The notes below the pieces were generated by a model, which saw nothing but the letters and a program-made list of their open reading frames with translations, did no database searches and was not told the origin of the DNA. This document shows, piece after piece, positions 9,001 to 33,077 of a stretch of 64,000 nucleotides of DNA (positions within the stretch are counted from its first letter, which is position 1; every line of letters begins with the position of its first letter). The stretch is taken from the NCBI GenBank assembly GCA_000004985.1, contig GG738911.1, one strand, 5' to 3'. The translations under genes and the position numbers were made by a program. This DNA comes from Naegleria gruberi. Taxonomy: Eukaryota.

Positions 9001-9152
9001 GTTGCTCTCTAGGATTTCTCAATCTTATTGAAAACAAATATTCGAGTGTTTTCAATAACTCAATTTTGATTATTTCGGCAAATAAACAACAAAAATGTAA
9101 ATAACCGATTCAGTTTTAATATGTTGTTTAAAAAGTTTATTAGTTAAATAAT

Positions 9153-11342: not shown

Positions 11343-11513
11343 TTTTTTTTTAATTTTAAATTTTCTGATTTTTTTTAATGGATGGCAAACAAAAATAGAA
11401 TTGACAACTAAAAAGGAGGTGGATGTGTGAAATTGGATGTGAAACTGCTTTTATTGGATTTCTAATTTAATTGAAGAAAGTAAATGGAATGTAAGTTGAA
11501 AAATTGATTGTTT

Positions 11514-13850
11514 TTAAACAATATCATCTTCTTCATTCAAATCATCTTTGAATTTCGAATACTTTTTGAAGAAACGTTTCTTTTGTGGAATGACATGATC
11601 TAGTTCAATATCTGTATCATCAACAGGAGTATTTTCAGGTTCTGGTGTCTTATTCAAATTATCACTCGATTTGTGAGTTACATGTGAAGCTGAAATCTTG
11701 ACATTTGAATTTTGATGCTTATTCATATTGTTGAGAATTGGATTCATCCATTCCATATCTTTAGGCAAGAAGAAGGAATTTTCTTGAATAAACACTTGTG
11801 AAATAATTTCAATAAAATCCTTCTTTGTAATCTTGACAAATGTCACATCCTTCACAATACGAACATCATAATCTGGAATAAAGGTTTCTCTTGTAAGTGC
11901 TCTTTCTCCAATAAAACTCCAAGGTCCCATTTCAGAAGTGAATTTTTCCTCACAAAACACAGCTTCAAGTTTACCACTGAATACAAGAGCAAAATAATCA
12001 CATTCCTTATTCTTTTCAATGAGGAGTAATTCCTCATCAGAGGAGCTCTTCTTAACATCCACAACTGCACATTTACCAAGGAGTCTGTGCAAATATTCTT
12101 CTGGTAATAGTCTGAAAGTGGCCATACTCTTCCACAAGTAGGAGCCAACAGCAACCACTTGTTTTGGAGTGAGTCTGTTGGTTCTTTCCAATTTTAGTAA
12201 CAAACTGGTAGAATTTTGTGGTCTGTTAATCTTGGATTGATTGGTATTATCTACATAGATATCAGTTTCATCGACAATTTCGTCCTTAATAATTTCCTCA
12301 ATGATATCTTCAAGAGATACAATACCAACAATAGCATAGTATGGATCACCACCAGTTTCAGATTCTCTTGGTTCTTGAACAATGGCAATGTGAGTTCTAC
12401 CAGATTTGAAGGTCTTTAACATTTCATCACAGTAAGTGTCTGGGAAAACTTTGAGAACTTCTCTTCCGTAGAATGTCAAAATTGTAGAAATTGGCACACA
12501 TTCATCAGGGTTGACCAGAATCAAATCTTTCACATAGAGTAAACCAACAACATTATTCTTATCACCCTTGAAAACAGGAATACGAGAGTGACCAGCTTGC
12601 CAAATACTTGTCATTGTGTCCACATCAAGTTGGCTATCAAAATCCAACATGAAAACATTTTCAAATTTGGTCAAAATTTGACTAACAGGAATTCTAGCAA
12701 ATTCCAAAGCACCACCCAAAATTTTAGCTTCATGTTCAGTCAAGTGGAAATTAGGATCATGAGCCTTTGAGTGAATATTAACCAATTCCTTCAATTCAGT
12801 TCTCTTATAGAGAGTGCCATGATCAGATCCAAGCATCCAATCCAAAAGTTTACTAATTGGATAAGCAATAACAAAAGCAAGTCCAATCAAGAACCAAACC
12901 AACCAATATAAAGTACCACCAATAGCCATACCATATCTAGAAATGACAGATTGTGGAATAACCTCACCAAATAACAAGACGAAAGTAATACCCAACAAGA
13001 TGGCAGCCCACTCAGGAACGAGCTTGTCCAAGAAGAGAGGAAGACATTCCACACACAAAGCATTCCACAACAACAAGGTAACTAACAACAAGTGATGTCT
13101 TTTCAGGATTGGAGCCAAACGAGCAGCATACTTTCTCTCCTTTTCAGTTCCAGTCGATTTGAGAATATCCAATTGCATTGTATCAATGGAAAGTAAACCA
13201 AGTGTGAAACCAGACATTAAACCAGCACCCAAAATAAAGAACATACTCGCTCCAACATTAATGACAATATCATACCAAGGCATATTCAAGATATTTGGTT
13301 CTTCTTCTTCTTCGTGGTGGGGAATTGGGGCAGATCCATTATTAGTGTGATTATAGTAATTGGCACAAACTGAAGGCCAATCAATGGTCATGTTATTACT
13401 ATTAACAGCACTACTACTGCTGCTGCTAGCAAAAACATGACTAATTCTTCTTCTTGTTGGAACATAACCCTCAACAACAAACATTGAATGTTGTTCGTAA
13501 GAAAAAGTTGCCAAAACAACCAAAATTAAAAGAGCCAACAATAATACGAGTGAAAAACTCCTCTTTTTAATTGGTGGTGGTGATGGTGGTGGCGGACAAT
13601 TAGGATTTTCCTTTCTGTTATGATCATCACTTTTACCATGATTGAGTAGTGGAAATGATAATGATAATAACATTCTGGATAGTGTTATTACAGAAGGATG
13701 GTTGATTCCCTCCTTTTCACTATTCCCAAATTCATCCCTAATGAGCAGGGAAGCATTGTGAGTTGGTTTTTTGAAGGTTTGTATCATGCAACAGGCGAGT
13801 AAACTTGTGTTCTTTGTGTTGATTGGTAGGCAACAAAAGTAAGCAGACAA
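11514..13850 (-). CDS. CNNM/ACDP-family metal (Mg2+) transporter: DUF21 TM domain + CBS pair + cNMP-binding-like domain
   Basis: Strong DUF21 signature GEVIPQSVISRYGMAIGGTLYWLVWFL...AYPISKLLDWMLG, then a CBS-pair region (HEAKILGGALEFARIPVSQILTKFENVFMLD...VVGLLYVKDLILVNP) and a C-terminal cNMP-like fold. The true N-terminus is uncertain (it may include an intron). Confidence 0.75.
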   Translation of the reverse strand: MSAYFCCLPINTKNTSLLACCMIQTFKKPTHNASLLIRDEFGNSEKEGINHPSVITLSRMLLSLSFPLLNHGKSDDHNRKENPNCPPPPSPPPIKKRSFSLVLLLALLILVVLATFSYEQHSMFVVEGYVPTRRRISHVFASSSSSSAVNSNNMTIDWPSVCANYYNHTNNGSAPIPHHEEEEEPNILNMPWYDIVINVGASMFFILGAGLMSGFTLGLLSIDTMQLDILKSTGTEKERKYAARLAPILKRHHLLLVTLLLWNALCVECLPLFLDKLVPEWAAILLGITFVLLFGEVIPQSVISRYGMAIGGTLYWLVWFLIGLAFVIAYPISKLLDWMLGSDHGTLYKRTELKELVNIHSKAHDPNFHLTEHEAKILGGALEFARIPVSQILTKFENVFMLDFDSQLDVDTMTSIWQAGHSRIPVFKGDKNNVVGLLYVKDLILVNPDECVPISTILTFYGREVLKVFPDTYCDEMLKTFKSGRTHIAIVQEPRESETGGDPYYAIVGIVSLEDIIEEIIKDEIVDETDIYVDNTNQSKINRPQNSTSLLLKLERTNRLTPKQVVAVGSYLWKSMATFRLLPEEYLHRLLGKCAVVDVKKSSSDEELLLIEKNKECDYFALVFSGKLEAVFCEEKFTSEMGPWSFIGERALTRETFIPDYDVRIVKDVTFVKITKKDFIEIISQVFIQENSFFLPKDMEWMNPILNNMNKHQNSNVKISASHVTHKSSDNLNKTPEPENTPVDDTDIELDHVIPQKKRFFKKYSKFKDDLNEEDDIV

Positions 13851-14043
13851 GATGTTTTTTTTTTGTTTGTTGAATCTTTTCTAATATCCAAAGGATTCGT
13901 TTTTTGATATTCGAAATGTGAAGATGCAGTAAAATTAATATCTATTTCGTTCCTTGATTGTGAATGACCGATTTCGGTAACCTCGCAAGATTTTTACAAA
14001 ATTTTCAAGATTTTTCTCTCTTCTTCTTGAAAAATTATTGAAC

Positions 14044-15885
14044 TCATTGAATTTCACATTTGGATGTTTTTTTGGTGGTAATAATTTCCTTGTCATTGGA
14101 ATTTACATTTTCATTCTTGAAGGTTTGTTTCATTTCAGAGTGTCTTCCACTTGATAGAATGGAGAAGGGAGGAGTCCTTTCGAATAGAATATAACTTGGA
14201 TAGCAATAGGTCATGTAAGGCTGATCTGGTTGATGGCTTGCTAGAATATAAAACGAAACATAAATCTTCTCATTGGAAAGGAGAATAAATTTCACATTAT
14301 TCAATCCACCTTCAAATTGGTTCTTATTTTGACAAATTTGTTCAGTAATAGATTGATGAATGGTTTCAGATCCAGTTTCGGATAAAACTGGAATAAGGTT
14401 TCCAGTTGCATTATATATCCTACTGATGTGAATGACACAGTTATGGAGTAGATACTCTTCTATCAAATTAGTTGATGAGCTACTCGATGAAATTTCTGCA
14501 TATGAAAACCCTAAATATTTCAGATTAGTCAACTTTTTCAAAGAAATATTTTGGTAGGATGATAAAATAGATAAATATTCCAAACTAATCATTTGCTCAA
14601 TCGGTGATAGATCATCATTTTCACCAGGATAAATAGTTAACTTTCTCAATTGAAGTCCACTAAGAAGTGAAATATCAAGAAAATGGATTGAGCGTGCTGT
14701 TGTAATGTTCAATTCTTCCAATTCTTTACACTGAAATTCAACATTTGATTGTAATTTGAAATCACACTTATCCAAAATCAAACTTTTCAATTTCCTAATT
14801 CTTGTAAAAAAATCAATTCCACTATTGAAAAAGCAACAAAAACATTTTACAAATTCCAAAGAGGGAAATGAGTTTGAGGCACCTTCTAAATTTCTCACTC
14901 GAAGCAATTCCAATCGTTTAAGGTGATCAAACTTGTTTCCCATTAAGAAATCCTTGTTCAAAAATTGGCAACTAATTGGTGGTACTGTGGAATAGGTTCC
15001 AATTTTCAATTCCCTTAACGATGGATTCAACAATAGAGGATTAGGAAGTTGATTAATTTCCAATCTTGATAAGTTACTGATATAATCTAATTGTAATTGA
15101 TTGACAATGGCTGTGCCCTCAAATCTGAGAAATAATTCTTGGCAATTTGAAGATACATTCCTAAAGAAATCAACTAGAAAATTTGGATCCTTTTCAATTT
15201 CTTCCAATATTGTTGTTTCGATTGGAATTTCCAATATTAATTTTTGTAATTTCTTCATTTGAAGAATTAACTTTTCAATTCGTTTCACATGAGCGGATTT
15301 GATCTGGCTCTGACTTGATGAAGAGAAATGAGGAACATGGATAGAGAATTCGAATATCTTCAATTGTGTGAATTTGGTTTGTTCCAATTCAGTCAAAATC
15401 AAATCCAAACTATTATGGAAAGTTGTGAAACCTATTGAAAGTGAGTGCAAATTATTGAAATTGGAAAGGAATGAGGATTGTACTGGTATGGGACTATTTA
15501 ATCCAAAGTAAACGGTCAATTTCAAATTCCACACTAAATTACATTTGCACCTTTCGAATATTTTTGTAATAAATTCGAAAGGTTGAATTTCAAACATGTA
15601 CAAATTAACTGAAATCGTCTCAATTTTTCCAATATTTTCCTCCATAAATTTACTTGAAGATTCAACTGTATTTTCATCACTTTTCATATCTCGTAGTAAT
15701 AAATTCGCCTCTCGTATCCAAAAAAAATTCGAATAATTCTTGTGAAAATTAACTTGTTCGAAAGTAATGTAATTCTTCACAAATGATAGAAATTTACAAG
15801 TTAATCGTAGATTAGACCTTGTATCCCGATCACTGTATCCAAGTATGAGAATGAACATTTCTTTGGGAAGTGATAGTAGAGACAT
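14044..15885 (-). CDS. F-box/LRR-repeat protein
   Basis: 613-aa ORF with an N-terminal F-box-like stretch (LPKEMFILILGYSDRDTRSNLRLTCKFLSFVKNY), then repeated L-rich segments with LxxLxL periodicity (LEELNITTARSIHFLDISLLSGLQLRKLTIY...). Confidence 0.55.
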   Translation of the reverse strand: MSLLSLPKEMFILILGYSDRDTRSNLRLTCKFLSFVKNYITFEQVNFHKNYSNFFWIREANLLLRDMKSDENTVESSSKFMEENIGKIETISVNLYMFEIQPFEFITKIFERCKCNLVWNLKLTVYFGLNSPIPVQSSFLSNFNNLHSLSIGFTTFHNSLDLILTELEQTKFTQLKIFEFSIHVPHFSSSSQSQIKSAHVKRIEKLILQMKKLQKLILEIPIETTILEEIEKDPNFLVDFFRNVSSNCQELFLRFEGTAIVNQLQLDYISNLSRLEINQLPNPLLLNPSLRELKIGTYSTVPPISCQFLNKDFLMGNKFDHLKRLELLRVRNLEGASNSFPSLEFVKCFCCFFNSGIDFFTRIRKLKSLILDKCDFKLQSNVEFQCKELEELNITTARSIHFLDISLLSGLQLRKLTIYPGENDDLSPIEQMISLEYLSILSSYQNISLKKLTNLKYLGFSYAEISSSSSSTNLIEEYLLHNCVIHISRIYNATGNLIPVLSETGSETIHQSITEQICQNKNQFEGGLNNVKFILLSNEKIYVSFYILASHQPDQPYMTYCYPSYILFERTPPFSILSSGRHSEMKQTFKNENVNSNDKEIITTKKTSKCEIQ

Positions 15886-15930
15886 TTTTTTCTATTAGAA
15901 ACTTTACAATTAAACTAATCTCTAAAAAAA

Positions 15931-17787
15931 ATGCAAATGGATAAAACTGAGTCTATTCACTTGGATCTAACAATCGGATCCAATTTACTCATACAAAAAT
16001 ATCATCGAGAGAAGAAACTAATTCGTTTCATCACACAACATTCCACAATTTATTCGAAACTTGTGCCTGATGATCTTCCTTTAATCATACAAATCCTCCG
16101 AACCAGTGAAGCCTTTCCCGATTTATTTGTTGGTAGATTTAAAGGGAGTGGTATGTTTCGTATATCAACTCCCAACTTTCCAATACCAGATCAATGGATG
16201 AAACACAGACAAGTAGCTCTCTTTCTAGCTAAAAAAGGATTGTTATTTCAACAGGAAACTTTGAATTACGAACCCTATCTAACAGATAAAGAAATCATGA
16301 TGGAGGCATGCTCAAACAACTCTCATTATCTTTCGAATTTTCCACTTGGAACAGATGGAGAATTTATGCGAAAGTTATGTAAACTGAATGGAACCATGTT
16401 GGGCTATGCCAGTAAAGAATTGAAGAAGGATAAGGAATTGGTATTGGAGGCAGTTCGTTCAACACCTGAAGCTTTCCATTTTTGTGATGAGTCGTTCAAT
16501 AAGGATAATACAGTTGTATACGAAGCTGCCAAACATGCATCATTTAATATAACCAAAATTGATGGAGAAATGTTCAATAGGAGGAAGTTTGTTTTGGCAC
16601 TGATGGAATATCGTCCTGAAATATTTATTCACCTTCCATATGAACTCAAAACAGATCCTAAAGTGTTAAATTTGGCGCCTTGCAAGAATTTGAAAGTTTT
16701 GAGCTTGGTGCCACCTTCCTATCAGAAAGATAGAGATTTTGTGTTGAAATGTGTGAGAAATAATGGTTTGGATTTAGAGTTTGCCCATCCATCACTGAGA
16801 AAGGACAGGGAAGTTGTTATGGAAGCTGTCAAACAAAATGGACTGGCTCTAGAATTTTCATCTGAAATGTTAAGAAATCAAGATAGAGAAATAGTTTATG
16901 AGGCTGTTAAAAGTAATGGAAATGCAATAGAATTCACTAGTGATCAATTCAAAAGGGATTTAGAACTAGCTCGGATGGCAGTTATGAAAAACCATGAATC
17001 TTTTATGCTTGTGGACAGTTCAATCAAGCAAGATAAGAAACTGATTCAAAGCTTTTTGGAAGAAACTGGTTACTACTATTATATTGCATCAAATGAATTG
17101 AAAACTTCACTTCATGATACCATTAGAGGGGATAGAGATTTACTGGGATTGGCAATTTTAAAAGACGAAACATTACTTGAAGAGCCATTGCCAGATTTTG
17201 TGGACGAAGAATTCATGTTAAATGCAGTGAGAAATGGCTTTAGTTTGGACTGTGTTCCTCAGAAATTCAAACAAAACGAAGAGATTATTCTCGAATCGAT
17301 CAGACATGCGAGCATTAATTTCAAATATGTCGATTCTTCTCTAGCTTCCAATAGAGATTTTGTTCTAAAGTGTGTGAAAGCAAGTGGTTTTGTACTTTTT
17401 TACACTGATGAAAAATTCAGAATGGATAGGGAAATAATATTGGAAACATTGAAAGCAACAACTTCAGGATCAATTTCATTGGACTGGAGTGAATCTCATC
17501 CTTTTAATTCAGATAGAGAAATTTTATTGGAATGTGTGAGAGGAAGTGGTGATCTTCCCTCTCAAGCAGATTCGAATATTATGAATGACCCTGAATTTAT
17601 TGTGGAATGTGTAAAAATTGGAAAGGATAGAAACAAAGATATTACCGACTATTTGGAGAAAGTAAGAAATACCATATTGAGTAATGAGAGTTTATTCTTG
17701 AAACTGGTCAAAATTAATCCCAAAATTGTCGAATCCTTAAATTTAGATTTAGATTTCCTCACCTTGGCTTTCAACTCTTTAACATGA
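15931..17787 (+). CDS. DUF4116-type tandem-repeat protein (~38-aa DRE(I/V)V..AVK.NG.AL.FAS..LR.D repeats)
   Basis: 618-aa ORF starting in AAAAAATG context. At least 10 repeats of the type LRKDREVVMEAVKQNGLALEFSSEMLRNQDREIVYEAVKSNGNAIEFTSDQFKRD. Confidence 0.7.
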   Translation: MQMDKTESIHLDLTIGSNLLIQKYHREKKLIRFITQHSTIYSKLVPDDLPLIIQILRTSEAFPDLFVGRFKGSGMFRISTPNFPIPDQWMKHRQVALFLAKKGLLFQQETLNYEPYLTDKEIMMEACSNNSHYLSNFPLGTDGEFMRKLCKLNGTMLGYASKELKKDKELVLEAVRSTPEAFHFCDESFNKDNTVVYEAAKHASFNITKIDGEMFNRRKFVLALMEYRPEIFIHLPYELKTDPKVLNLAPCKNLKVLSLVPPSYQKDRDFVLKCVRNNGLDLEFAHPSLRKDREVVMEAVKQNGLALEFSSEMLRNQDREIVYEAVKSNGNAIEFTSDQFKRDLELARMAVMKNHESFMLVDSSIKQDKKLIQSFLEETGYYYYIASNELKTSLHDTIRGDRDLLGLAILKDETLLEEPLPDFVDEEFMLNAVRNGFSLDCVPQKFKQNEEIILESIRHASINFKYVDSSLASNRDFVLKCVKASGFVLFYTDEKFRMDREIILETLKATTSGSISLDWSESHPFNSDREILLECVRGSGDLPSQADSNIMNDPEFIVECVKIGKDRNKDITDYLEKVRNTILSNESLFLKLVKINPKIVESLNLDLDFLTLAFNSLT

Positions 17788-17880
17788 TGCATATCAAACA
17801 CTTTTATTTTCACAAACTCTTGCTGCATGTGTTAAAGTTTTGTAAACCAAAAAGTTTTAATTTTTAAAATTAAAAAAAAA

Positions 17881-19740
17881 ATGTTGCCAACCTACGCTTC
17901 GGAACGGCCAAACCAAGACCTCCACACACGAAGGAATGCACCATTAACAAATTCAATCAATAATTCATCATCACGAACGACCGATATGGAAAATCCATCA
18001 TCTTTGAATTTTCCAACAATTTCTCATCAATTCACATTTAAACAAAAAGTTTTACGAATTGTAAAATTGTTTGTGTTGATTATTGTGGCAATTGTTGTGT
18101 TGCATGTGATGATGCACTATTTGGAGTTTAAATTCTTTAATAATTCGACACATAGAAAGGAACAAATACGAATCTATGAGCAAATTACGAATCTATTGAC
18201 TAATCCGGACCAAACCAAGGAAGGTTCATATGGATGGTATAGAAAACAACTGGATAAGAAGAATCAACTAGGAAATACACTATTTAAAGATCCAATAATG
18301 ACTAAATTGGGGTTTCAAGAGACACACACAACGAGTGCTGAATTATTTCCATATTTCAGAACTATTAACACAACTGAAGAGTGTAGGAATCAACATTCTT
18401 GTAGATTTTATGCAGACAAGACAGCAGGAGAGTTCTTGAAAGAGGGAGTGGAATTGGATGCAGTTTTGCAACATTGTCAATATAAGGATCCATACTTTTT
18501 AAATTCTGAAAGTGATGAAGCAAAAATTGTGAATGAATTTCAGTTTAATGTTGTGAATTCGAATATGAATTTGAGGAGGGAGAAATTGGTTGGAGATGAA
18601 GAGGCACTTTTACATCACTCTCATCAGTTGGATAATTTATTTGGTGAAAAGATTTGGAGAGGAATGAGAAGATTGTCAATTATCATGTGTAGTGAGGCTC
18701 GTGTTCATGAACTCGTTGGTGGAATTACACAACATGCAGATAGCTATTGGTCAAAGCAAAGATTTGCACGTTCCACAGCCGACATTTCCATTTGCTTCCT
18801 TTCCACATGTTCTGTTTGGATCAATTACCATTATCAGGATATGAGTCTTTCCAAGTCAAAGGAATTTGGAACTAAACCATTCAAAAAAAATAAGGGAATT
18901 TGTGCTTTTATTTCAAATTGTGATCAAGCTGGTTGCACTGATTTGAAACAAAGATTTGAACTCTTGAATACACTCTCAAAATACATTCCAGTGAGACAAT
19001 ATGGTAGATGTGGAAAGAATGCACAAGAAGGACCAGGTGGTAAAACATTTGAAATTGAAAATAATTGTCGATTCTATTATGCAGCTGAAAATTCAATTGC
19101 CAAAGATTATGTTACTGAGAAATTCTTTGAAGGATTGAGAGCTCTCGAGCACGGATCGAAAGTATTAATGCTCTACAGAGGTGCTCCAAATTTGAGACAA
19201 GATTGGGGTATTCCAAAGAGTCTCTACTTGGATCATAATGATTTTGAATCTGTGGATGCATTGGGTCAATATTTGAAGAAATTGAATGATGATGATAATG
19301 CCTTTGAAGAACGGTTCAGTAAAATTACAATGCAAGAAAGAAAGAAGGTTGATAAGGCACTTGCAGCATTCAATCCACGTCTTGGATCAAACATTCCATG
19401 TAGAATTTGCAGTGTAATTGGAGAAATGAAATTGGCACGTTATTTACTCTTCAAAATTGGATTAAAGACAAGTAGAGCTAAGGTCAACCTGAACGAGTGG
19501 AATGAATTTAAATCTAAATTCAATCTTTCAGAGGAAAGAGTGAAAATATTGGACGATATTTATCATACTGCCTATGGAATCTTCCAATCTGCAAACAATA
19601 AGGAAAATAGATTTAATTTGGGATGGGATTTCGGGAGGAAGGATGAAGTACAGCACACAGAGGGAGAGGGGGTTGGTTCTGGTGACAGAAAATTCTCTGG
19701 TCTTGTGGTTAAGCGAAATAATAAACGAAAATTACTCTAA
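17881..19740 (+). CDS. alpha-1,3-fucosyltransferase (GT10) paralog 1, type II membrane protein
   Basis: 619-aa ORF with an N-terminal signal anchor (IVKLFVLIIVAIVVLHVMMHY). It carries the canonical GT10 motif CRFYYAAENSIAKDYVTEKFFEG (compare YxFxLxFENSxxxDYxTEK). Confidence 0.8.
   Translation: MLPTYASERPNQDLHTRRNAPLTNSINNSSSRTTDMENPSSLNFPTISHQFTFKQKVLRIVKLFVLIIVAIVVLHVMMHYLEFKFFNNSTHRKEQIRIYEQITNLLTNPDQTKEGSYGWYRKQLDKKNQLGNTLFKDPIMTKLGFQETHTTSAELFPYFRTINTTEECRNQHSCRFYADKTAGEFLKEGVELDAVLQHCQYKDPYFLNSESDEAKIVNEFQFNVVNSNMNLRREKLVGDEEALLHHSHQLDNLFGEKIWRGMRRLSIIMCSEARVHELVGGITQHADSYWSKQRFARSTADISICFLSTCSVWINYHYQDMSLSKSKEFGTKPFKKNKGICAFISNCDQAGCTDLKQRFELLNTLSKYIPVRQYGRCGKNAQEGPGGKTFEIENNCRFYYAAENSIAKDYVTEKFFEGLRALEHGSKVLMLYRGAPNLRQDWGIPKSLYLDHNDFESVDALGQYLKKLNDDDNAFEERFSKITMQERKKVDKALAAFNPRLGSNIPCRICSVIGEMKLARYLLFKIGLKTSRAKVNLNEWNEFKSKFNLSEERVKILDDIYHTAYGIFQSANNKENRFNLGWDFGRKDEVQHTEGEGVGSGDRKFSGLVVKRNNKRKLL
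18862..19134. repeat. ~272-bp near-identical tract shared with 39628..39900 (FucT paralog 2): candidate gene-conversion tract
   Basis: Only ~2 substitutions over ~270 nt between the paralogs, while flanking coding sequence is ~70-88% identical. The identical antisense ORFs 18908..19096 and 39674..39862 are a by-product of this. Confidence 0.7.
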
Positions 19741-19851
19741 CAAATAAATTGTCCCTATCATGTTCAATGTAACAATTTAAAAAGTTATTGACAACAATTT
19801 TTCACAGCAATAACTGGAAATTGTAATCAACAAAAAATCATAGAAAAAAAA

Positions 19852-20538
19852 ATGTCTCAAAGCAATAACACCACCAATTACGCCTCTCCAATCATTGCCA
19901 ATCTTCCACGAGGCTGGATTAATTTCGAAGGCTCCATTCCCAATAGAACTCCACTCCACTCCTATGGCATGTATGAAAATTATGATCATTCCGAGTTGCC
20001 AGCCTTTCCTCAAGATACCAACTATAATGAATCATTGGTAAAGTGTGGGGCCATCAGTACTACCACCCCGAATAATAATAATCTTACTCAATTGGTTGAT
20101 CCAAATATTCCGAATGTTTTGAAACAATTATTTAGTGATCAAAGTTTCTTTGGCAGTAAGAATGGAGTTTGTCATTATTGGTTGAGAGATATGATTGGGC
20201 CATTGGATGTCTATTTGCCAAATAATCAATTTGTTTTGTATCCTTTCTATCATGATCAACAATCGTGTATGACTTGGTTTGCATTGTGTGATTTGACAGT
20301 TACTGATCCAACTAAAATTGGAAGTACTGAAAAACCATGTGTTGTTTCTGGGTTGAGTGGTGAAGATATTGAGGCAGATGAAGATTTCTTTCCAAATGTT
20401 TTGAGATTGACAAGTTTTGTGTTAGTTGCTGATACCATTGAAGAGTTTGTGTGGAGAGAAGGAATTGAGGCTGAAATCAGCAATCCGAATGGAAATTTGA
20501 GTACTGAAGCTCAAAATTATCTTCAAGAATATCAATAA
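19852..20538 (+). CDS. Hypothetical protein (228 aa), no recognisable domain
   Basis: Clean ORF with an A-run before ATG (aaaaaaaaATG) and no low-complexity bias. Function unknown. Confidence 0.5.
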   Translation: MSQSNNTTNYASPIIANLPRGWINFEGSIPNRTPLHSYGMYENYDHSELPAFPQDTNYNESLVKCGAISTTTPNNNNLTQLVDPNIPNVLKQLFSDQSFFGSKNGVCHYWLRDMIGPLDVYLPNNQFVLYPFYHDQQSCMTWFALCDLTVTDPTKIGSTEKPCVVSGLSGEDIEADEDFFPNVLRLTSFVLVADTIEEFVWREGIEAEISNPNGNLSTEAQNYLQEYQ

Positions 20539-20568
20539 ATTGGCTATTTCAAATAATTAGGAAATGAT

Positions 20569-20943
20569 TTAACTTGTTTCCAGGCCTTTACTTGTTCTTG
20601 TTTTAATTTTGACAAGTTCAACATCTTCTCTCAAACTTTCTGATGCAAATTCTAAAAGTGTGCCTCTATGTTGTACAGCTATCAGTACAACCTCCTTATT
20701 GTTCTTAATGTTAATTGGTGCAAATTGTAGAGAGTCTGGATTTGCAGAGATGGCTCTCTTTGAGAATTTCACATTTCTTCTCAATAATTCTGATGCATTC
20801 TCATAGGATCCGACTTGTTTCCACAATTCTTCAATAATCATTTCATTTTCCATCAAGTCTTTCGATAGATATTTAATGACAGATTCGCCATAAGTTTTGA
20901 TTGCTAAACAGACTATTTCAATATATTTTAACCTCTTGATCAA
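20569..20943 (-). CDS. Small DUF4116-type repeat protein (1-2 repeats)
   Basis: 124-aa ORF containing KEVVLIAVQHRGTLLEFASESLREDVELV, the same repeat type as 15931..17787 and 37029..38261. Confidence 0.4.
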   Translation of the reverse strand: MIKRLKYIEIVCLAIKTYGESVIKYLSKDLMENEMIIEELWKQVGSYENASELLRRNVKFSKRAISANPDSLQFAPINIKNNKEVVLIAVQHRGTLLEFASESLREDVELVKIKTRTSKGLETS

Positions 20944-21068
20944 CTGGTTTGTATAAAATCTTTCATAATTACCATTTTTTTATGATTTCTGAAAAATGAA
21001 TTTGACACGTTTGTGTTTCGTCCACTTTATTAATAGATTAGTTCTAAGAAATAATTTCAATGTAATCG

Positions 21069-22462
21069 TTACCGTCTAGGAGGTGAGTCAGTATAGACTT
21101 CAGTGATCACACCAAAAACACAAATATTACCATTATCCCACATTAGAAACCTTCCAAATGGAGGATAAGAATAAACCGTAGCAACATAGATTTGATTTTT
21201 TGGTTTCAGAAGAACGGTAGCATATTGACCTTTTCTGAGCTCCATTGGATTTTCATCTCTCTCATATCTTTTAATCGTATTGGAGGAGACATAAAAATCC
21301 TTGAATTTACAGCTGGTTTGTAGTGAGTGAATATTAAATGTGGGATTGTACCCTCTTCGAAATGGTGACTCTCTCAATACAGCAATATCTGCCTTGAAAC
21401 TATGTACTTCTTTAGCATAATCATTATTAAAATCTGATAATACCATTCCAGGTTTAACGTTTGAAGGATTCAAACTTGTTTTCAATTGGATGGTTACCAA
21501 TTGACCTGCTTTTGCTTCCCTGACAAGTTTTCTGCAAATTGCAATGGATTCAATTTTCATGGAGGGAGGAAATTGTTTCTTGTGGGGAGTGAGTCTAATT
21601 TCTGTTTCCAATTTCAAAATTCCAGTTTCAATTTTTCCAAACACAACCAATGCACCTTTCAAATTAAAAACCTTTGAAATTGAAATTCGAAGTGGTAAAT
21701 CGTACCTGTAGAGAGGTGCCTTTAGAGAATTGATAGCATCCAAAAGACAAGGTCTACCACCTTTATACCATTCCATTTTACTGCCACACGCTGGTTCCAA
21801 AATATTATCATCATTATGATTTCCCAATAATGATGACAAGGCAGAAATTGGAATTACTGTAGCATTTCCATTCTTATATCCATTGTTCTTGTATATTTTA
21901 GTGATTTCACTCTTAATTTCCATAAATCTTGTTTTAGAATAATCAACACTCTCCATCTTATTCACACAGAAAATCAATTGAATTGATCCGAGACAATATG
22001 TGGCTCTAATCATTGTTGTAATATTTGGAATTCCAGCTTCAAAGGCTCCAATTTCAGCATCCAACACAACAATTCCAATATTTGCTTGTGATATTCCTCT
22101 AAACATACTTTTCAAAAATGGATTCGCTTTTTATCATCATCATTACCACATATATTTAAATTAATCAAATTTTCCTAATTACCTGGAGCATCAATAATAT
22201 TTAAATGAAAATGTTTAGTTTCGGCCATGCTGTAAACTAAATTCATTGTTCTTCCTCTCTTAATTTCATCCTTCGTTCTCGATAACACGCTTGCATAGTT
22301 TCGAATAGAATCAGACGAATCTAATTGCATGCCAGATTCTACTCGTTCCATGATTGAAGAATTGATAGTCCCGAGGGAGTGTAGTAATTGTACGGCCAAT
22401 GTTGTTTTACCAGAATTAGCTTGACCAAGAATAATCACACTCAGTGTTGGCTTTTCAAGCAT
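21069..22462 (-). CDS. EF-1alpha/HBS1/eRF3-family translational GTPase-like protein with degenerate catalytic motifs (two exons; intron 22127..22182)
   Basis: Exon 1 (22462..22183): MLEKPTLSVIILGQANSGKTT...RGRTMNLVYSMAETKHFHLNIIDAP, with G1 and G2 like EF1A. A GTAATT donor and aaaaag acceptor join it to exon 2: ANPFLKSMFRGISQANIGIVVLDAEIGAFEAGI...CVNKMESVDY, then EF1A-like beta-barrel domains II/III (VIPISALS...KPGMVLSD). Switch II reads DAPA rather than DxPGH, and NKxD is NKME. Confidence 0.7.
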
Positions 22463-23212
22463 TTTTTTTTGTTGTAAAGTTTATTGCACGTGCAATTTTG
22501 ACATTGAAACATATATCTACCAACAGTTGTCATTATGAAAAAATAATGTATGTGAATAGAACCAATCAGGCGAAAAAAATCTTTTGACAAACCATGCAAA
22601 AAAAACTGTTCGCATAATTAAGCTCATAATGCTAAAAAATATCTTTGGACATATATATCCTTAGTTATAATCAATCAACAAGAACTTGGAAAAATATTGA
22701 CAACAAGTAAGTCCATCCCGACTCGGTTGATTCTTGGAGAATGATTTAAATAGTAGTATTAATAGTAATTTTTGGAATTTAATTGTTCATCATGATTTGG
22801 AAATAATTTTATTATTTGGAAAAATTCAAGTTGGTACCAACCATCATCGGAACAACAACCAACCTGATCATCATTGTTATTTACCATCATTATAATATTT
22901 GTGGAAATAAATCTGATAATAATAATATTTTAGTATAACATGAATGTTTTGTAAACTTGATAAAATGTTCTTTTTATAAACGAATAAAGATATTTGAGTA
23001 ATGTGGAGAAAAACTGTCTTTATTTTGAATCTTGTGAATTTGAATTACCTAAAGATCTCAATAGTGAAAATTGGTATTTTAAAAGTGAATGGATAATTTT
23101 CATCTTTTTCACAATTTGAAAATAATTTCCAAAATTGGAAATTAGACAACTTGGGTGATTGAGTTTCATTTTCACAAATCATTGAATCTCAGCCATCCTC
23201 ATGCCGAAACAG

Positions 23213-23219
23213 TATAAAT
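23213..23219 (+). promoter_or_regulatory. TATA box (TATAAAT) ~56 bp upstream of the protease ATG
   Basis: agTATAAATtggc precedes ATG 23275 in a divergent intergenic region shared with the EF1A-like gene. Confidence 0.3.
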
Positions 23220-23274
23220 TGGCTCATCAGACGAAACATTGACTTTCAAACAATCACAAAAAAAACAAAACAAA

Positions 23275-24405
23275 ATGTATTCGAATATCAAAACTATCCG
23301 AAACACCTTGAGCAACTTGTTGCTCCTCACTCTCCTTACATTGACTTTCATCAACTGTTCCTCAATGCAAACCAATCTCTTTCCCTCCAATTCTAGAGCA
23401 ATCAACGTTGCTGGTGGCACATCAGTGTCATCTGCCAATGAATTTCCACATATGGTCAGCATTCAATACTACTCGAGCTCATCAGTTGCCACAGGAATCC
23501 ACTTCTGTGCAGGAACCATCATATCCCCTCTCCACATTGTCACTGCTTCTCACTGTGATATTGGTGTCACTTTAGATAAATTGAGAATTATTGCTGGGAA
23601 TTCGAATAATCAATGCACCGCTAGTTCAACATCATGCACGATTCGTACAGTTACCAAATTCACAAAGCATCCAAATTATGACAGTTCTACCATTAAGAAT
23701 GATATTGCAATCATTGAATTGGATCAACCAATTCCATTGGACGGAGTTAGAGCAGTTGCCGCCAAAATTGAGAATTTGACATTGGATCAATTTCTTTCAT
23801 CTAGTTCTAGCTCAATGGTAAATATTGCTGGTTGGGGAAGAACTACAACTCAATCAAGCGTTCAAGTGATTCAGAAGGCTATGGTTCCAATTTCGCCAGT
23901 TTCAGTTTGTAACGCCAAAAATTTGGGAGTTTCGTCTCCAAATCAAATATGTGCTGGTAATGGAAATGGTATTGATACTTGTGGTGGTGATAGTGGTGGT
24001 CCACTTTTCAGAGTTATTGCTGCAGGAACTGTCAATAACAATTTACCAATCTTTGTCTTGACAGGTGTCGTTTCTTATGGACCTCCAGGATGTGGTGGAT
24101 CAAATGTTGGTGCCTACACAAATGCAACTCAATATATCTCATTTATAAGAGAACAAGTTGGTTCCTCATATACAGTTGAAAAGTACGGAGATAGTTCAAA
24201 GCCAATTATTACTCCAACTCCTGTGCCATCTCCTTCTCCAGTCGTTCCTGTTCCTTCTAATAATGGTAATAATCAATCTTGTAAATGCAAGTGGTATTGT
24301 AAGAAGGTTAGACAAATGAGGGAAATGAGATTGAGAGGTGGAATGAATGTTGATGAGAGTCAATTTATGAAATGGATAAAGTTAAATCCATTCAATAAAA
24401 TGTAA
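23275..24405 (+). CDS. Secreted trypsin-like (S1) serine protease with Pro/Ser-rich linker and short Cys/basic tail
   Basis: Signal peptide MYSNIKTIRNTLSNLLLLTLLTLTFINC. Catalytic triad motifs are present: IVTASHC (His), DIAIIEL (Asp) and GDSGGPLF (Ser). This is followed by TPTPVPSPSPVVPVPS and CKCKWYCKK. The ORF-track start at 23239 is a TTG; the ATG is at 23275. Confidence 0.85.
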   Translation: MYSNIKTIRNTLSNLLLLTLLTLTFINCSSMQTNLFPSNSRAINVAGGTSVSSANEFPHMVSIQYYSSSSVATGIHFCAGTIISPLHIVTASHCDIGVTLDKLRIIAGNSNNQCTASSTSCTIRTVTKFTKHPNYDSSTIKNDIAIIELDQPIPLDGVRAVAAKIENLTLDQFLSSSSSSMVNIAGWGRTTTQSSVQVIQKAMVPISPVSVCNAKNLGVSSPNQICAGNGNGIDTCGGDSGGPLFRVIAAGTVNNNLPIFVLTGVVSYGPPGCGGSNVGAYTNATQYISFIREQVGSSYTVEKYGDSSKPIITPTPVPSPSPVVPVPSNNGNNQSCKCKWYCKKVRQMREMRLRGGMNVDESQFMKWIKLNPFNKM

Positions 24406-24491
24406 ACAAGATTTACAGAAATAGTTCAATAAAATAGTAACAAACTTTAACAAAATCGCACCATTGAAAAAATCGAAAAGAAGATAAAAAG

Positions 24492-24578
24492 ATCCGATTA
24501 TACGGAATCGAACCGCCGACCACAGGATAACAGTTTTTCTTGCTACAGTCCCATGCTCTACCAGCTGAGCTATCATCG
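24492..24578 (-). tRNA. tRNA-Tyr (GUA) with ~14-nt intron 3' of the anticodon
   Basis: Minus-strand sequence CCGATGATAGCTCAGCTGGTAGAGCATGGGACTGTAG[caagaaaaactgtt]ATCCTGTGGTCGGCGGTTCGATTCCGTATAATCGGA shows the D-arm GCTCAGCTGGTAGAGC, anticodon-loop CUGUAGA and T-loop GGTTCGATTCC. The intron position matches eukaryotic tRNA-Tyr. A few stem mismatches remain, so the call is moderate. Confidence 0.6.
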
Positions 24579-24701
24579 GTTATGATATTGTTATTTAATG
24601 GTACACAATTATAATATATAAATTATGTCGCAACTACATTTATCTCTTGAGCCATATGACTTTTCAAAATTTGGTGAATGTTCAAATATTGTAAAGAAGG
24701 G

Positions 24702-24708
24702 TATAAAG
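24702..24708 (+). promoter_or_regulatory. TATA-like box (TATAAAG) ~110 bp upstream of ATG 24817
   Basis: ggTATAAAGagtatttagagg lies in the intergenic region. Confidence 0.25.
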
Positions 24709-24816
24709 AGTATTTAGAGGGTTAACGGATTACACCACAATTCAGCGACCTTTAACACTCATTAATCCTAAAAAGAAAGAAAGACTCAGCGATTTACGAA
24801 TCGAAACATAAAAAAA

Positions 24817-26172
24817 ATGCAAATTTCATCCAGCAGCGAACAATGCCTCACATTGTTGGCTGTACTTTTCTTACCACTTTTCGTTTATTGCTCAGATTTC
24901 GGCAAAATCTACACTGTCTCCAAGTACAACAGTAAACAAGTATACGAAAATATATACGAAAGTTCAACATATAACTATCAAGGTTTTCAATCACCCTCTG
25001 ATTACTACAAGCTTCCTACTGGTATTCAAGTGAGTTTCCGATACCAATTCCAAAATATTGATGATGAAATTTCCTCATCAGATTCTTTTTCTTTCCAATT
25101 TCACAGAGAAACTAAACTAAAGTATTCCATTGACTTTCCACTCATCCAAAACGTTACCATTTTGAACGCAACTGTCCTATTAAACGCTAGATTTGGTATT
25201 TTCAATGTTGACATTCCCAATCAACTAATTGCCAGAATTGGAGATTTGCACTTTACAAAATTAAATCAAACTTTGAAGGAAAAAAGTGAATTTGGTGAAG
25301 AAATTTCTTCAATTGATGAATTTTCATTGAATTTAAATCTTTCTCAGATATTTACTACCATTAATTCAACAACAGTTGCCTTAATTTATAATTTGGGAGA
25401 TACTGAGCCAAGAAATGTGAAATTTTCACAATGGACGAAACTTTCATGTCCTTCCTCTTATGAGCTAATTGAAGAAAAGTTGAGAAATTCGAAAGAGTTT
25501 ACATCTCTTGGATTTGTAGAGGGACCAGTTTCGTATAATGATCCATCAATTCCAAAGTTTAAAATTGAAGAAATGAACCAAGTTAGAGTGGAAGATATTC
25601 AAGATTCGTATAACAAAAGACCAGGTTTCGAATATACAATTTTGAAGAGCTACATGTTTTATCAAAGTAATATCGAGTACGATAATCTATTATCTTCCTA
25701 TATTAATTTCAACTTTGAATCCAATGGAAATTTCACAGATATTTATGGAAGAAATGTCATAATTGACTTGGCATCAATGTCATGTGGAGCTCGTGTCAAA
25801 TACGGATACAAATTCGGAGATGAGATTAAGGATTATTCATTTGAGGATAAAAGATCCAATGAATACGTTCAATGTGATCACGGAACTTTCTTCAATAATT
25901 CCTTAATAGTTTTCTATGGGAAAGTTCTGAATGGACCATTACCACCTGTTCCTTATCCATCATTTTCTCCTTCTCCTTCTCCTCATCCACATTATTCGAA
26001 ACAAATTGTTTCATCTTCTTCATCTAAAAATGGAAATAATCAATCTGTGATTATTGGTGTGAGTGTTGGCTTGGGATTATTTGCTTTTTGTGTTGTGATT
26101 TCAATCATTTCAATGGTGATTTGTATTGTGGTGAAAAGACGTCAGAAATATGCCTATCAATCCGTTCAATAA
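24817..26172 (+). CDS. Type I single-pass membrane protein, unknown family
   Basis: 451-aa ORF with signal peptide (LTLLAVLFLPLFVYCS), a large ectodomain with NxT sites, a Pro/Ser stalk (PLPPVPYPSFSPSPSPHPH) and a TM helix (VIIGVSVGLGLFAFCVVISIISMVICIVV), then a basic stop-transfer KRRQKY. Confidence 0.6.
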   Translation: MQISSSSEQCLTLLAVLFLPLFVYCSDFGKIYTVSKYNSKQVYENIYESSTYNYQGFQSPSDYYKLPTGIQVSFRYQFQNIDDEISSSDSFSFQFHRETKLKYSIDFPLIQNVTILNATVLLNARFGIFNVDIPNQLIARIGDLHFTKLNQTLKEKSEFGEEISSIDEFSLNLNLSQIFTTINSTTVALIYNLGDTEPRNVKFSQWTKLSCPSSYELIEEKLRNSKEFTSLGFVEGPVSYNDPSIPKFKIEEMNQVRVEDIQDSYNKRPGFEYTILKSYMFYQSNIEYDNLLSSYINFNFESNGNFTDIYGRNVIIDLASMSCGARVKYGYKFGDEIKDYSFEDKRSNEYVQCDHGTFFNNSLIVFYGKVLNGPLPPVPYPSFSPSPSPHPHYSKQIVSSSSSKNGNNQSVIIGVSVGLGLFAFCVVISIISMVICIVVKRRQKYAYQSVQ

Positions 26173-26395
26173 AATTTAACACGTTCAAATCTGTTTATTG
26201 TGATAAAATTATGGAACTATCGAATAATTTGTGTGTGAAAAAGGTTTTGTAAACAATTTAGAGTTTATTTTGGGTAAGTTTGACGGTTCTCCGCTTTTGC
26301 ATTGACTTCTAACCGTTGGGGTAAATGGTCCTTTCGTTTACATGCAATTAATTGGCAATAGAAAACTGAAACTTTGGTTGACACTTGTTAAAAAA

Positions 26396-27589
26396 ATGTC
26401 AAAAGTCAGCTTGCTTGTTTTTATCATTGTTTTCGCTTGTTTTGTTGGTTGCGTACAAGCTTCTATCCATCTAGTACCACAAGCAACCAAATCCACTCCA
26501 GCTAGTCAAAGTAAACTTGAAGAAACTAAACTAATCATCTTGCCTTCATGGACACAAATATTCGAAACTAGACAAATCAATGGACAAACCATCTCACAAT
26601 ACGCCCAACAATATGTCAACTGGGCAGGTGTCATTGGAGGTTCCGTAGCTGGTCTTTTATTTTTAATTATCATCTTACCAACAATTATTGCCTGCGTTGC
26701 TTTATGCATTGTTGGATGTTGTGTGAAACAAACTAATTCAAACGAAACCGAGTTGGAATCAAAGAATCCATACTCTGAGTTACCTACCACATCCATTTCA
26801 GGTCAATTGGTCAATGGAACAACTTTATATGATGTCAATTATGCTGATTGTGCAGTTTTCCTTTTTTGGGCAGTTACATGGATTTTCAGAAAATTAACAT
26901 GTGGAATTTTTGATTCCATTTTCATTTTGAGAAGAACAAGATTTCGTGTCAGAAAAATGTTGGTTGGAAATCGGAAATTAGACATGGACATTTCTGATCA
27001 CTGTTGTCACATTCCATTTCTTCATTATTTGAACGGTTGGCTGAATTTGTACACTTGTGGATTGTGGAGAGTCTTTGGAATGACCCACAGATTCTATTAC
27101 AGAAAGATTGATGATAGAATTTATTGGAAACCATTAGAAAGTTCAAAAGAAAATTCAGAAGAAATTCAATGGATTGGCTTTAACAATGAAAAAGGTGGCA
27201 AAAATCAATTCACATGGTTTAGTATCTATTGTGGATGGAGAATTGAATTAATGTATTGGTTCTTGAAGAGATTTGTAAATGTTTTCACATTATTCTTTGC
27301 AGGACCATTTATAGAAGCTTGGTATTTAAGGGAAAAGATTCAATTTGCTAAATTTGGAGGGAAGGGAAGTTTTGCAATTATTCAAAATGGTCAACCAATT
27401 TCGATGGTTGCTGGTTCTCCAATGAAATTATCATTTAATTCCATTTTGGATGGATGTTCCTATTTAGGAAGGTTAGTATTGTTTAGATTTTTGGTAATTG
27501 TTTCATGTGGAGTGTTTGCTTGTTGTCCTGGTGAGAGATTTGTATTGTCATTTATTGATGAACATTTGGTATTGAATTCTTCTCATTAA
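26396..27589 (+). CDS. Secreted/membrane protein, unknown family
   Basis: Signal peptide MSKVSLLVFIIVFACFVGCVQAS begins at the second in-frame ATG (the ORF track starts at 26342). There is a TM helix near residue 100 (AGVIGGSVAGLLFLIIILPTIIACVALCIV) and a W/F-rich C-terminal domain. Confidence 0.55.
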   Translation: MSKVSLLVFIIVFACFVGCVQASIHLVPQATKSTPASQSKLEETKLIILPSWTQIFETRQINGQTISQYAQQYVNWAGVIGGSVAGLLFLIIILPTIIACVALCIVGCCVKQTNSNETELESKNPYSELPTTSISGQLVNGTTLYDVNYADCAVFLFWAVTWIFRKLTCGIFDSIFILRRTRFRVRKMLVGNRKLDMDISDHCCHIPFLHYLNGWLNLYTCGLWRVFGMTHRFYYRKIDDRIYWKPLESSKENSEEIQWIGFNNEKGGKNQFTWFSIYCGWRIELMYWFLKRFVNVFTLFFAGPFIEAWYLREKIQFAKFGGKGSFAIIQNGQPISMVAGSPMKLSFNSILDGCSYLGRLVLFRFLVIVSCGVFACCPGERFVLSFIDEHLVLNSSH

Positions 27590-32984: not shown

Positions 32985-33077
32985 ACATAGTTTCATAGTA
33001 TTAAAAGTATCATTATTACTTGATTGAAATTTAATCTTACAGAGGAAAGGTGAGAGTTAATTAGACTAGAAAGCAAT

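What the first reader, a model, noticed from the sequence alone, without database searches (positions are those of the whole stretch)
18862..19134. Near-identical 272-bp tract between two diverged fucosyltransferase paralogs: gene conversion
FucT genes 17881..19740 and 38452..40413 are ~20 kb apart and overall clearly diverged (many amino-acid differences; flanks ~70-88% nt identity). Yet 18862..19134 and 39628..39900 differ at only about 2 positions. The tract covers the catalytic GT10 motif region, including CRFYYAAENSIAKDYVTEKFFEG. Such a sharp identity island is the signature of recent ectopic gene conversion rather than purifying selection, because synonymous sites are also identical.
Basis: seen in the sequence. 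Interest (0 to 1): 0.5.

Follow-up and report, generated by a model that had tools for sequence, protein, structure and literature searches.

The report
Gene conversion between Naegleria fucosyltransferase paralogs
Two old, diverged fucosyltransferase gene copies about 20.6 kb apart in the amoeba Naegleria gruberi share a sharply bounded 273-base stretch that is 99% identical even at silent sites, an ordinary but very clean case of one gene copy overwriting part of the other.

Summary
The rest of the aligned coding sequence is ~75% identical.

- **Silent sites:** dS is 0.019 inside the tract and 0.98 outside. 4-fold sites differ at 0/31 inside and 30/65 outside.
- **Significance:** none of 20,000 codon-column permutations comes near the observed segment score.
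- **Rivals tested:** codon bias, RNA structure, overlapping ORFs and protein-level constraint do not explain it. A motif invariant in all six aligned paralogs still differs at 7/51 bases between the two genes.
- **Source:** the window is Naegleria gruberi (Sanger assembly). Both genes are intact GT10 fucosyltransferases on the + strand of one gap-free contig.

Best explanation: recent ectopic (interlocus) gene conversion over the start of the GDP-fucose-binding domain. Third-position GC content suggests that the downstream copy was the donor and the upstream copy the acceptor.

A second, weaker island (19177..19308, 95%) lies beyond an 18/42-mismatch patch and suggests an older, separate event. 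The phenomenon is well known; this instance appears unreported. Read-level confirmation and unconverted alleles from other strains were out of reach.

The parts
17881..19740 (+). GT10 fucosyltransferase paralog A (619-aa ORF), the probable acceptor. The public model P0001 starts at Met78 (18112).
   Evidence: ORF. PF00852 at 90.5 bits over residues 335-515. 100% identical to a Naegleria gruberi predicted protein over 542 aa. Hydrophobic 19-mer at residues 60-78.
38452..40413 (+). GT10 fucosyltransferase paralog B (653 aa), the probable donor.
   Evidence: ORF. PF00852 at 91.7 bits. 653/653 identical to N. gruberi protein P0002. Hydrophobic 19-mer at residues 64-82.
18862..19134 (+). Converted tract, copy in gene A (codons 328-418). 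It covers the start of the GDP-fucose-binding domain, including FISNC and ENSIAKDYVTEKF.
   Evidence: 273 bp with 3 mismatches to 39628..39900. dS 0.019. GC3 is 14/91, lower than any other 91-codon block of gene A (minimum 22 of 91 among 348 blocks).
39628..39900 (+). Converted tract, copy in gene B.
   Evidence: Same alignment. Its GC3 of 14/91 is typical of gene B: 79 of 382 other blocks are <= 14.
19135..19176 (+). Unconverted, highly diverged patch directly 3' of the tract. It pairs with 39901..39942.
   Evidence: 18 mismatches in 42 bp (57% identity). Codon alignment shown.
19177..19308 (+). Second, weaker identity island in gene A, probably an older separate conversion tract. It pairs with 39943..40074.
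   Evidence: 7 mismatches in 132 bp (94.7%). Same-amino-acid codons differ at 4/41 against 80/222 outside (P = 8e-4). Its divergence is higher than in the main tract (P = 0.016). Only marginal in the permutation test: 382 of 20,000 for its 51-bp core.
39943..40074 (+). Second identity island, copy in gene B.
   Evidence: Same alignment.

Best explanation
This is a non-reciprocal copy, an ectopic (interlocus) gene conversion by homologous-recombination repair, between two directly oriented GT10 fucosyltransferase paralogs. The genes start 20.6 kb apart on one Naegleria gruberi chromosome, and the two tract copies are offset by 20,766 bp. The genes duplicated long ago; their silent sites are near saturation (dS about 1). 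Much later, within roughly the last 1-2% of that time, a 273-bp stretch of one copy was overwritten using the other as template. I infer the usual route: a break in one copy, strand invasion into the paralog, short repair synthesis and annealing without crossover. The stretch encodes the first ~90 residues of the donor-sugar-binding domain. Three point differences have accumulated since, or escaped heteroduplex repair. Third-position composition indicates that the downstream gene B (38452..40413) was the donor and the upstream gene A (17881..19740) the acceptor. A second 132-bp island 42 bp downstream, with about 5% divergence, looks like an older, independent tract. Shown here: the tract, its edges, the collapse of silent-site divergence and the failure of the selection-based alternatives. 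Inferred: the recombination mechanism, the direction, and whether there was one event or repeated ones.
For: 273 bp with 3 mismatches against ~75% identity elsewhere. dS 0.019 against 0.98. 4-fold sites 0/31 against 30/65 differing, and same-amino-acid codons 1/89 against 80/222. 0 of 20,000 permutations reach the observed segment score. Codon bias predicts <= 54 of 89 identical codons against 88 observed. An invariant protein motif elsewhere in the genes still has 7/51 nucleotide differences. There is no RNA-structure, Rfam or overlapping-ORF signal. DNA similarity between the loci is confined to the coding sequence, 18171..19631 against 38940..40403, and the tract aligns collinearly with the same region of four other paralogs, so it is not an inserted element. 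Direction: outside the tract GC3 is 0.33 in A and 0.22 in B, and 0.154 in the tract. Given the tract's amino acids, A's usage predicts 26.5 GC-ending codons (14 observed, P = 0.001) and B's predicts 18.6 (P = 0.13), a likelihood ratio of about 75. No other 91-codon block of A falls below 22. Naegleria genomes encode RAD51, DMC1, MSH2/6 and the rest of the recombination and mismatch-repair toolkit (PMC9928731).
Against: There is no outgroup DNA. The other N. gruberi paralogs and any other strain or species could not be retrieved, so tract-versus-flank phylogenetic incongruence and the direction are not shown directly. No reads were available. In mammals, interlocus conversion is reported to need about 92% or more overall similarity and more than 200 bp of uninterrupted identity (PMC3966225). 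These genes are ~75% identical outside the tract, so a single isolated event between such diverged partners is not easy to initiate. That favours repeated homogenisation of a region that never fully diverged. A conditional codon-usage likelihood test for direction was indecisive (LLR 2.5, between the A-like mean of -1.7 and the B-like mean of 4.9, sd 5.8).
Confidence: 0.85

Rival explanations
1. Residual concerted evolution. The island is not one recent event but the last part of the gene pair still being homogenised by repeated conversions. Each event preserves the identity that allows the next. The flanks have escaped, either by chance divergence or because selection removes conversions that spread into specificity-determining regions. 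This is a variant of the best explanation rather than an exclusive alternative.
For: The flanks are only ~75% identical, far below the ~92% overall similarity and >200-bp identity reported as needed for efficient conversion in mammals (PMC3966225). Outside the islands the longest identical run is 31 bp, which gives little homology to start a first event. A second island with intermediate divergence (5.3%; 4/41 silent differences) lies 42 bp away, consistent with several events at different times. Both edges are very sharp.
Against: The 42-bp patch between the islands is 43% diverged, so the two islands were never one homogenised block. With only two sequences and one genome, recurrence cannot be told from a single event. 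The homology thresholds come from mammals and may not apply to Naegleria.
Confidence: 0.3
2. Assembly artefact. The consensus of one copy was built partly from reads of the other, or from a different haplotype, creating a false identity island.
For: No reads could be inspected. The scaffold contains gaps (4981-5450, 48835-48884, 54379-54650, 59391-62761), so it is a draft. Each protein is known from a single source and contig, so there is no independent assembly.
Against: The N. gruberi NEG-M genome was sequenced by Sanger (PMC9928731 Table 1, PMC8040595). By my own knowledge, Sanger reads of roughly 600-900 bp exceed the 273-bp tract and would carry the ~25% diverged flanks, which an overlap assembler would not merge. 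The two tract copies differ at 3 positions. Both genes lie in one gap-free contig, more than 8 kb from the nearest gap. An artefact would need two precise in-frame breakpoints, and both ORFs are intact.
Confidence: 0.05
3. Nucleotide-level purifying selection. The tract carries an embedded functional element (structured RNA, regulatory site, antisense gene) or extreme codon bias that keeps silent sites identical without any copying.
For: The tract encodes the catalytic core of the domain and has very low GC3 (0.154).
Against: Folding energies are no better than shuffles on either strand (z = +0.95 and +0.45). There is no Rfam match in the tract even at E <= 1. The only overlapping ORFs are 42-62 aa and none spans the tract. 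Even under the tract's own codon usage only 53.9 of 89 codons are expected to be identical, against 88 observed (P = 4e-20). Across the six aligned paralogs the tract is not the most conserved protein segment.
Confidence: 0.03
4. Replicative template switching (a microhomology-mediated, break-induced-replication-type event) copied the segment, rather than canonical double-strand-break repair with heteroduplex formation. The outcome is the same but the enzymology differs.
For: Very abrupt edges and low flank identity. The canonical pathway usually requires longer homology.
Against: The replacement is perfectly homologous and in frame, with no junction insertions, duplications or microhomology signatures. 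No notable repeats or hairpins occur at the borders.
Confidence: 0.05

Closest known systems
Interlocus (ectopic, non-allelic) gene conversion between dispersed or tandem paralogs. Examples from my own knowledge: globin, opsin, RHD/RHCE and CYP21A2/CYP21A1P. The human FUT2/Sec1 case is reviewed in PMC3966225.
   Same: A short, contiguous, non-reciprocal-looking tract of near identity inside otherwise diverged paralogs on the same chromosome. The tract length (273 bp) falls in the usual range of tens to a few hundred bp. Silent sites are homogenised. The paralogs are in direct orientation and tens of kb apart.
   Different: Identity outside the tract is only ~75%, well below the ~92-95% typical of reported mammalian cases. 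The organism is a heterolobosean amoeba in which this has not, to my searches, been described. No donor/acceptor polarity from an outgroup is available.
Gene conversion among mammalian alpha-1,2-fucosyltransferase genes (FUT1/FUT2/Sec1; PMC4398370, PMC3966225).
   Same: Fucosyltransferase paralogs clustered on a chromosome that exchange internal coding segments by conversion.
   Different: Those enzymes are, from my own knowledge, GT11 alpha-1,2-fucosyltransferases, not GT10. The lineages are unrelated. The parallel is in the process, not in gene ancestry.
GT10 alpha-1,3/4-fucosyltransferases (Pfam PF00852). Solved relatives: plant core alpha-1,3-FucTA (9s6a) and human FUT9 (8d0o).
   Same: A C-terminal domain with the FxSNC and ENSxxxDYxTEKF motifs. 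PF00852 scores are ~4x the gathering threshold. PDB matches cover residues 334-479. An N-terminal hydrophobic anchor is present, as in Golgi type II enzymes.
   Different: The Naegleria proteins carry a conserved ~100-residue C-terminal extension (NIPCRIC...KLARYLLFKIGL...) beyond the Pfam match, and an N-terminal region with no Pfam hit. Only 8 representatives in 1.84 billion reach E <= 1e-30. Activity and acceptor are unknown.

Membership tests
Interlocus (ectopic) gene conversion | Two paralogous loci in the same genome that are otherwise clearly diverged | tested here: met
   Two GT10 ORFs on the + strand of one contig, with starts 20,571 bp apart. They are 74.9% nucleotide-identical outside the tract and 69-74% amino-acid identical.
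Interlocus (ectopic) gene conversion | A contiguous tract whose identity, including silent sites, significantly exceeds that of the flanks | tested here: met
   273 bp at 98.9%. dS 0.019 against 0.98. 0/31 against 30/65 4-fold sites differ. 0 of 20,000 permutations reach the observed score.
Interlocus (ectopic) gene conversion | Identity not explained by selection on the nucleotide sequence (codon bias, RNA structure, overlapping genes) | tested here: met
   Codon-bias expectation is 45-54 of 89 against 88 observed. Folding z-scores are positive. No Rfam hit. No spanning ORF.
Interlocus (ectopic) gene conversion | Phylogenetic incongruence: the tract groups the paralogs within a species while the flanks group orthologs across species or strains | not testable with these tools
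   No DNA from other Naegleria strains, species or paralogs could be retrieved. The closest non-gruberi proteins are <= 41% identical.
Interlocus (ectopic) gene conversion | Non-reciprocal transfer with an identifiable donor and acceptor | tested here: inconclusive
   GC3 of the tract fits gene B and not gene A (likelihood ratio ~75; no other A block is as low). The full codon-usage likelihood is indecisive and there is no outgroup.
Interlocus (ectopic) gene conversion | The sequence is real in the organism, not an assembly product | not testable with these tools
   The argument is indirect only: a Sanger assembly, 3 differences between the copies and one gap-free contig.
GT10 fucosyltransferase (PF00852) | Match to the family profile above the curated threshold | tested here: met
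   90.5 and 91.7 bits against a cut-off of 23.9. PDB sequence matches to FucTA and FUT9.
GT10 fucosyltransferase (PF00852) | The alpha-1,3-FucT motif (F/Y-x-x-x-F/A-E-N-S-x-x-x-D/x-Y-x-T-E-K; the pattern is from my own knowledge of the family) | tested here: met
   RFYYAAENSIAKDYVTEKF is present in both genes and aligns with KFSLAFENTNEEDYVTEKF of 9s6a and KFYLSFENSIHKDYITEKL of 8d0o.
GT10 fucosyltransferase (PF00852) | Fucosyl transfer from GDP-fucose to a defined acceptor | not testable with these tools
   No biochemical data. A literature search found nothing specific on Naegleria fucosyltransferases.

The most novel reading that the evidence does not exclude
The island is a self-sustaining conversion refuge. 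Naegleria repeatedly recombines two dispersed paralogs that are only ~75% identical overall, far below the similarity thresholds reported for mammals. Homogenisation is confined to the GDP-fucose-binding core, while selection keeps the acceptor-side regions and the adjacent 42-bp patch distinct. If this holds genome-wide, it would mean unusually permissive homeologous recombination (weak heteroduplex rejection) in an amoeba whose sexual cycle has never been observed. Such tracts would then serve as a usable record of recombination activity in that lineage.
Probability: 0.15. Interest if true: 0.45.

Novelty: new member of a known kind. Interest (0 to 1): 0.25.

Why it matters
Interlocus gene conversion is textbook biology, so this finding does not change concepts. 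It has three modest uses.

1. It is a very clean, sharply bounded example in a deep-branching eukaryote (Heterolobosea). It shows that homologous-recombination repair acts between paralogs about 20.6 kb apart in Naegleria gruberi, an organism for which recombination evidence is mostly indirect.
2. It warns anyone building trees or dating duplications of the Naegleria GT10 family. The 18862..19134 region, and probably 19177..19308, carry a different history from the rest of the gene.
3. Conversion at ~75% background identity is lower than usually reported. A genome-wide scan could show whether Naegleria tolerates unusually diverged recombination partners.

Tried and rejected
- **DNA of the other N. 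gruberi paralogs, or an independent copy of A and B.** Exact-product look-ups found nothing on record. A multi-sequence GENECONV/RDP-style test and outgroup polarisation were therefore impossible.
- **Metagenome scan** with the six-paralog alignment, using the patterns FE[LI][ED][NH]NC[RK] and ARYLLFKI. 208 pattern matches, none a relative.
- **Exhaustive protein search.** The only close relatives are N. gruberi paralogs, including a seventh, P0013. The next hits are unnamed metagenomic proteins at <= 41% identity, so no orthologs are available for dating.
- **The N. gruberi genome paper** (10.1016/j.cell.2010.01.032) is not held. The sequencing technology was taken from two later papers instead.
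- **Full codon-usage log-likelihood for direction.** Indecisive: 2.5, between the A-like and B-like means, sd ~5.8. Replaced by a GC3 test conditional on amino acids and a block scan.
- **Direction of the second island.** Unresolved, with a likelihood ratio of only ~3.
- **The tandem pair 55386..56375 / 56873..57937 as a within-window control.** Not clean, because it is indel-rich and ~90% identical in many blocks.
- **Repeats, hairpins or non-B motifs at the tract borders** as break initiators. Nothing notable.
- **RNA-structure, Rfam, antisense-ORF and codon-bias explanations.** Tested and rejected.

Full report
**What is there**

The window is a Naegleria gruberi scaffold. The two ORFs are 100% identical to N. 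gruberi predicted proteins annotated as fucosyltransferases on a 261-kb contig. Overall GC is 29.6% and there are four runs of N.

Gene A (17881..19740, +, 619 aa) and gene B (38452..40413, +, 653 aa) both match Pfam PF00852 (GT10) at about 91 bits, against a threshold of 23.9. Both have an N-terminal hydrophobic segment. Both align with solved GT10 enzymes, plant FucTA 9s6a and human FUT9 8d0o, over residues ~334-479.

DNA similarity between the loci is restricted to the coding region, 18171..19631 against 38940..40403. The intergenic flanks are unrelated. Both genes sit in one gap-free contig, 5451..48834.

**Checking the observation**

The coordinates are exact.
- 18862..19134 aligns without gaps to 39628..39900. 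The alignment is 273 bp with three mismatches, at 18888, 18945 and 19007.
- A maximum-scoring-segment search over the codon alignment returns exactly this interval.
- Outside it the aligned core is 74.9% identical. The adjacent 100-300 bp are 74-80% identical.
- The edges are abrupt: 12 mismatches in the 27 bp upstream and 18 in the 42 bp downstream.

**Is it more than chance or protein constraint?**

- Nei-Gojobori dS is 0.019 inside and 0.98 outside. dN is 0.009 inside and 0.205 outside.
- Codons encoding the same amino acid differ at 1/89 inside and 80/222 outside (P = 5e-13). 4-fold sites differ at 0/31 inside and 30/65 outside (P = 7e-7).
- Shuffling codon columns 20,000 times never gave a segment score above 21.1, against 50.5 observed. 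The longest identical run never exceeded 79, against 127 observed.
- As an internal control, GEMKLARYLLFKIGLKT is invariant in all six aligned N. gruberi paralogs, yet A and B differ there at 7 of 51 bases. Strong amino-acid constraint does not freeze silent sites in these genes.
- Across the six aligned paralogs the tract is not the most conserved protein segment.

**Rivals to copying**

- **Codon bias.** Even using the tract's own codon frequencies, 53.9 of 89 codons would be expected to be identical, against 88 observed (P = 4e-20).
- **Embedded RNA.** Minimum free energies are no better than dinucleotide shuffles on either strand (z = +0.95 and +0.45). No Rfam family matches inside the tract at E <= 1.
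- **Overlapping genes.** Only short ORFs of 42-62 aa occur, and none spans the tract.
- **Inserted element.** The tract is collinear with the homologous region of four other paralogs and has no third copy in the window.
- **Assembly artefact.** This was not testable with reads, but several points argue against it. The NEG-M assembly is Sanger-based (PMC9928731 Table 1, PMC8040595), and by my own knowledge Sanger reads are longer than 273 bp and would carry the diverged flanks. The copies differ at three sites. The contig has no gaps near either gene. Two in-frame breakpoints would be required.

**Mechanism**

The pattern is the classical signature of ectopic gene conversion. An old duplication has silent sites near saturation. 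A short internal segment was recently copied from one paralog to the other without crossover.

A crossover in this direct repeat would have deleted or duplicated the ~20.8-kb interval, which carries about a dozen ORFs of 200 aa or more.

With 3/273 differences against a silent divergence of ~0.7-1.0, the last event falls within roughly the most recent 1-2% of the time since duplication. That dating is my inference.

Naegleria genomes encode RAD51, DMC1, MSH2/6 and related factors (PMC9928731).

**Direction**

Outside the tract, gene A is consistently richer in G/C-ending codons than gene B: 160/484 against 112/518 (P = 5e-5). Among synonymous third-position differences, 48 are A=GC/B=AT and 14 are the reverse.

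In the tract both copies have 14/91 GC-ending codons.
- Given the tract's amino acids, A's preferences predict 26.5 (P(<=14) = 0.001) and B's predict 18.6 (P = 0.13). The likelihood ratio is about 75.
- No other 91-codon block of A goes below 22, whereas 79 of 382 blocks of B are <= 14.

This points to B as donor and A as acceptor. A full codon-usage likelihood was indecisive, so I hold this at about 70%.

**A second island**

19177..19308 pairs with 39943..40074 and has 7 mismatches in 132 bp (94.7%). Same-amino-acid codons differ at 4/41 there, against 80/222 outside (P = 8e-4).
- It is more diverged than the main tract (P = 0.016).
- It is separated from the main tract by a 42-bp patch with 18 mismatches.
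- Its support in the permutation test is only marginal, and its direction is unresolved.

I read it as an older, separate conversion.

**A caveat that makes the case slightly more interesting**

Reviews of mammalian data report that interlocus conversion needs more than 200 bp of uninterrupted identity and about 92% or more overall similarity (PMC3966225). Here the background is ~75%, and outside the islands the longest identical run is 31 bp.

Two readings follow. Either Naegleria tolerates more diverged partners, or the tract has been homogenised repeatedly since the duplication, so that each event keeps the homology needed for the next while the flanks escaped. With one genome and two sequences I cannot separate these.

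**Comparison with the known, and novelty**

The process is the well-known interlocus gene conversion. Fucosyltransferase paralogs in mammals (FUT1/FUT2/Sec1, a different GT family) are a published parallel (PMC4398370, PMC3966225).

Full-text searches found no description of conversion among Naegleria fucosyltransferases, and no genome-scale study of conversion in N. gruberi.

I rate it a new member of a known kind, of modest interest.

**What could not be done**

- No reads were available.
- No DNA of the other paralogs could be retrieved.
- No relatives were found in metagenomes.
- No orthologs closer than ~41% identity exist in the protein libraries.
- Tract-versus-flank phylogenetic incongruence therefore remains untested.

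Noticed in passing
window 17881..18111: The public protein model for gene A (P0001, 542 aa) starts at Met78 (18112). It therefore lacks the hydrophobic anchor at residues 60-78. The ORF extends upstream to 17881, and its first 12 residues (MLPTYASERPNQ) match the annotated start of gene B (MLPTYSSERPNQ). The first 45 coding bases are 31/45 identical, while the upstream 60 bp are unrelated apart from a shared A-run immediately before the ATG. The annotated start of A is probably too far downstream.
   Followed up: partly
window 17881..19740 vs 38452..40413: The two paralogs differ systematically in third-position GC: 0.33 against 0.22 outside the tract, and 48 against 14 for directional synonymous differences. 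They lie only about 20 kb apart. The cause (expression-linked codon usage, biased conversion, local mutation bias) is unknown.
   Followed up: partly
window 55386..56375 and 56873..57937; also 62952..63088: A tandem pair of unannotated Ser/Asn-rich ORFs is ~80% identical overall, with a mosaic of 100%-identical blocks (78, 73 and 57 bp) between indel-rich stretches. A third partial copy (84-86% to both) lies just after the large assembly gap 59391..62761, so a further tandem copy may be hidden in the gap. These could be more conversion or simply a young tandem array.
   Followed up: partly
window 15931..17787 (+) and 37029..38345 (-): Each fucosyltransferase copy has a DUF4116-repeat protein gene (9 repeats each) immediately upstream, in opposite orientations and with no detectable DNA similarity to each other. 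This is either coincidence in a DUF4116-rich genome or a remnant of a larger, rearranged ancient duplication.
   Followed up: no
window 27927..30371 and 43919..45367: Two exostosin-like GT47 glycosyltransferase ORFs lie in the same 64-kb window as the two GT10 genes, giving a loose neighbourhood of four glycosyltransferases. The second GT47 hit (30.9 bits) is below the Pfam gathering score of 33.4.
   Followed up: no
genes A and B, residues ~480-590 of A (window ~19320..19650): The Naegleria GT10 proteins share a ~100-residue C-terminal extension beyond the Pfam GT10 match. It has the motifs IPCR and KLARYLLFKIGL, invariant in the six aligned paralogs, and it also aligns in the few metagenomic relatives. 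The region N-terminal of the Pfam match is conserved among the paralogs but has no Pfam hit. Only 8 representatives in 1.84 billion reach E <= 1e-30.
   Followed up: partly
window 33876..34338 and 42902..43476: Two coding-region tandem repeat arrays were found: an 87-bp unit x 5.3 copies (81% matches) and a 120/243-bp unit x ~4 copies (70-78%). Both lie inside long ORFs (33841..34725 on the - strand, or 33845..34567 on the + strand; and 42766..43503 on the + strand).
   Followed up: no
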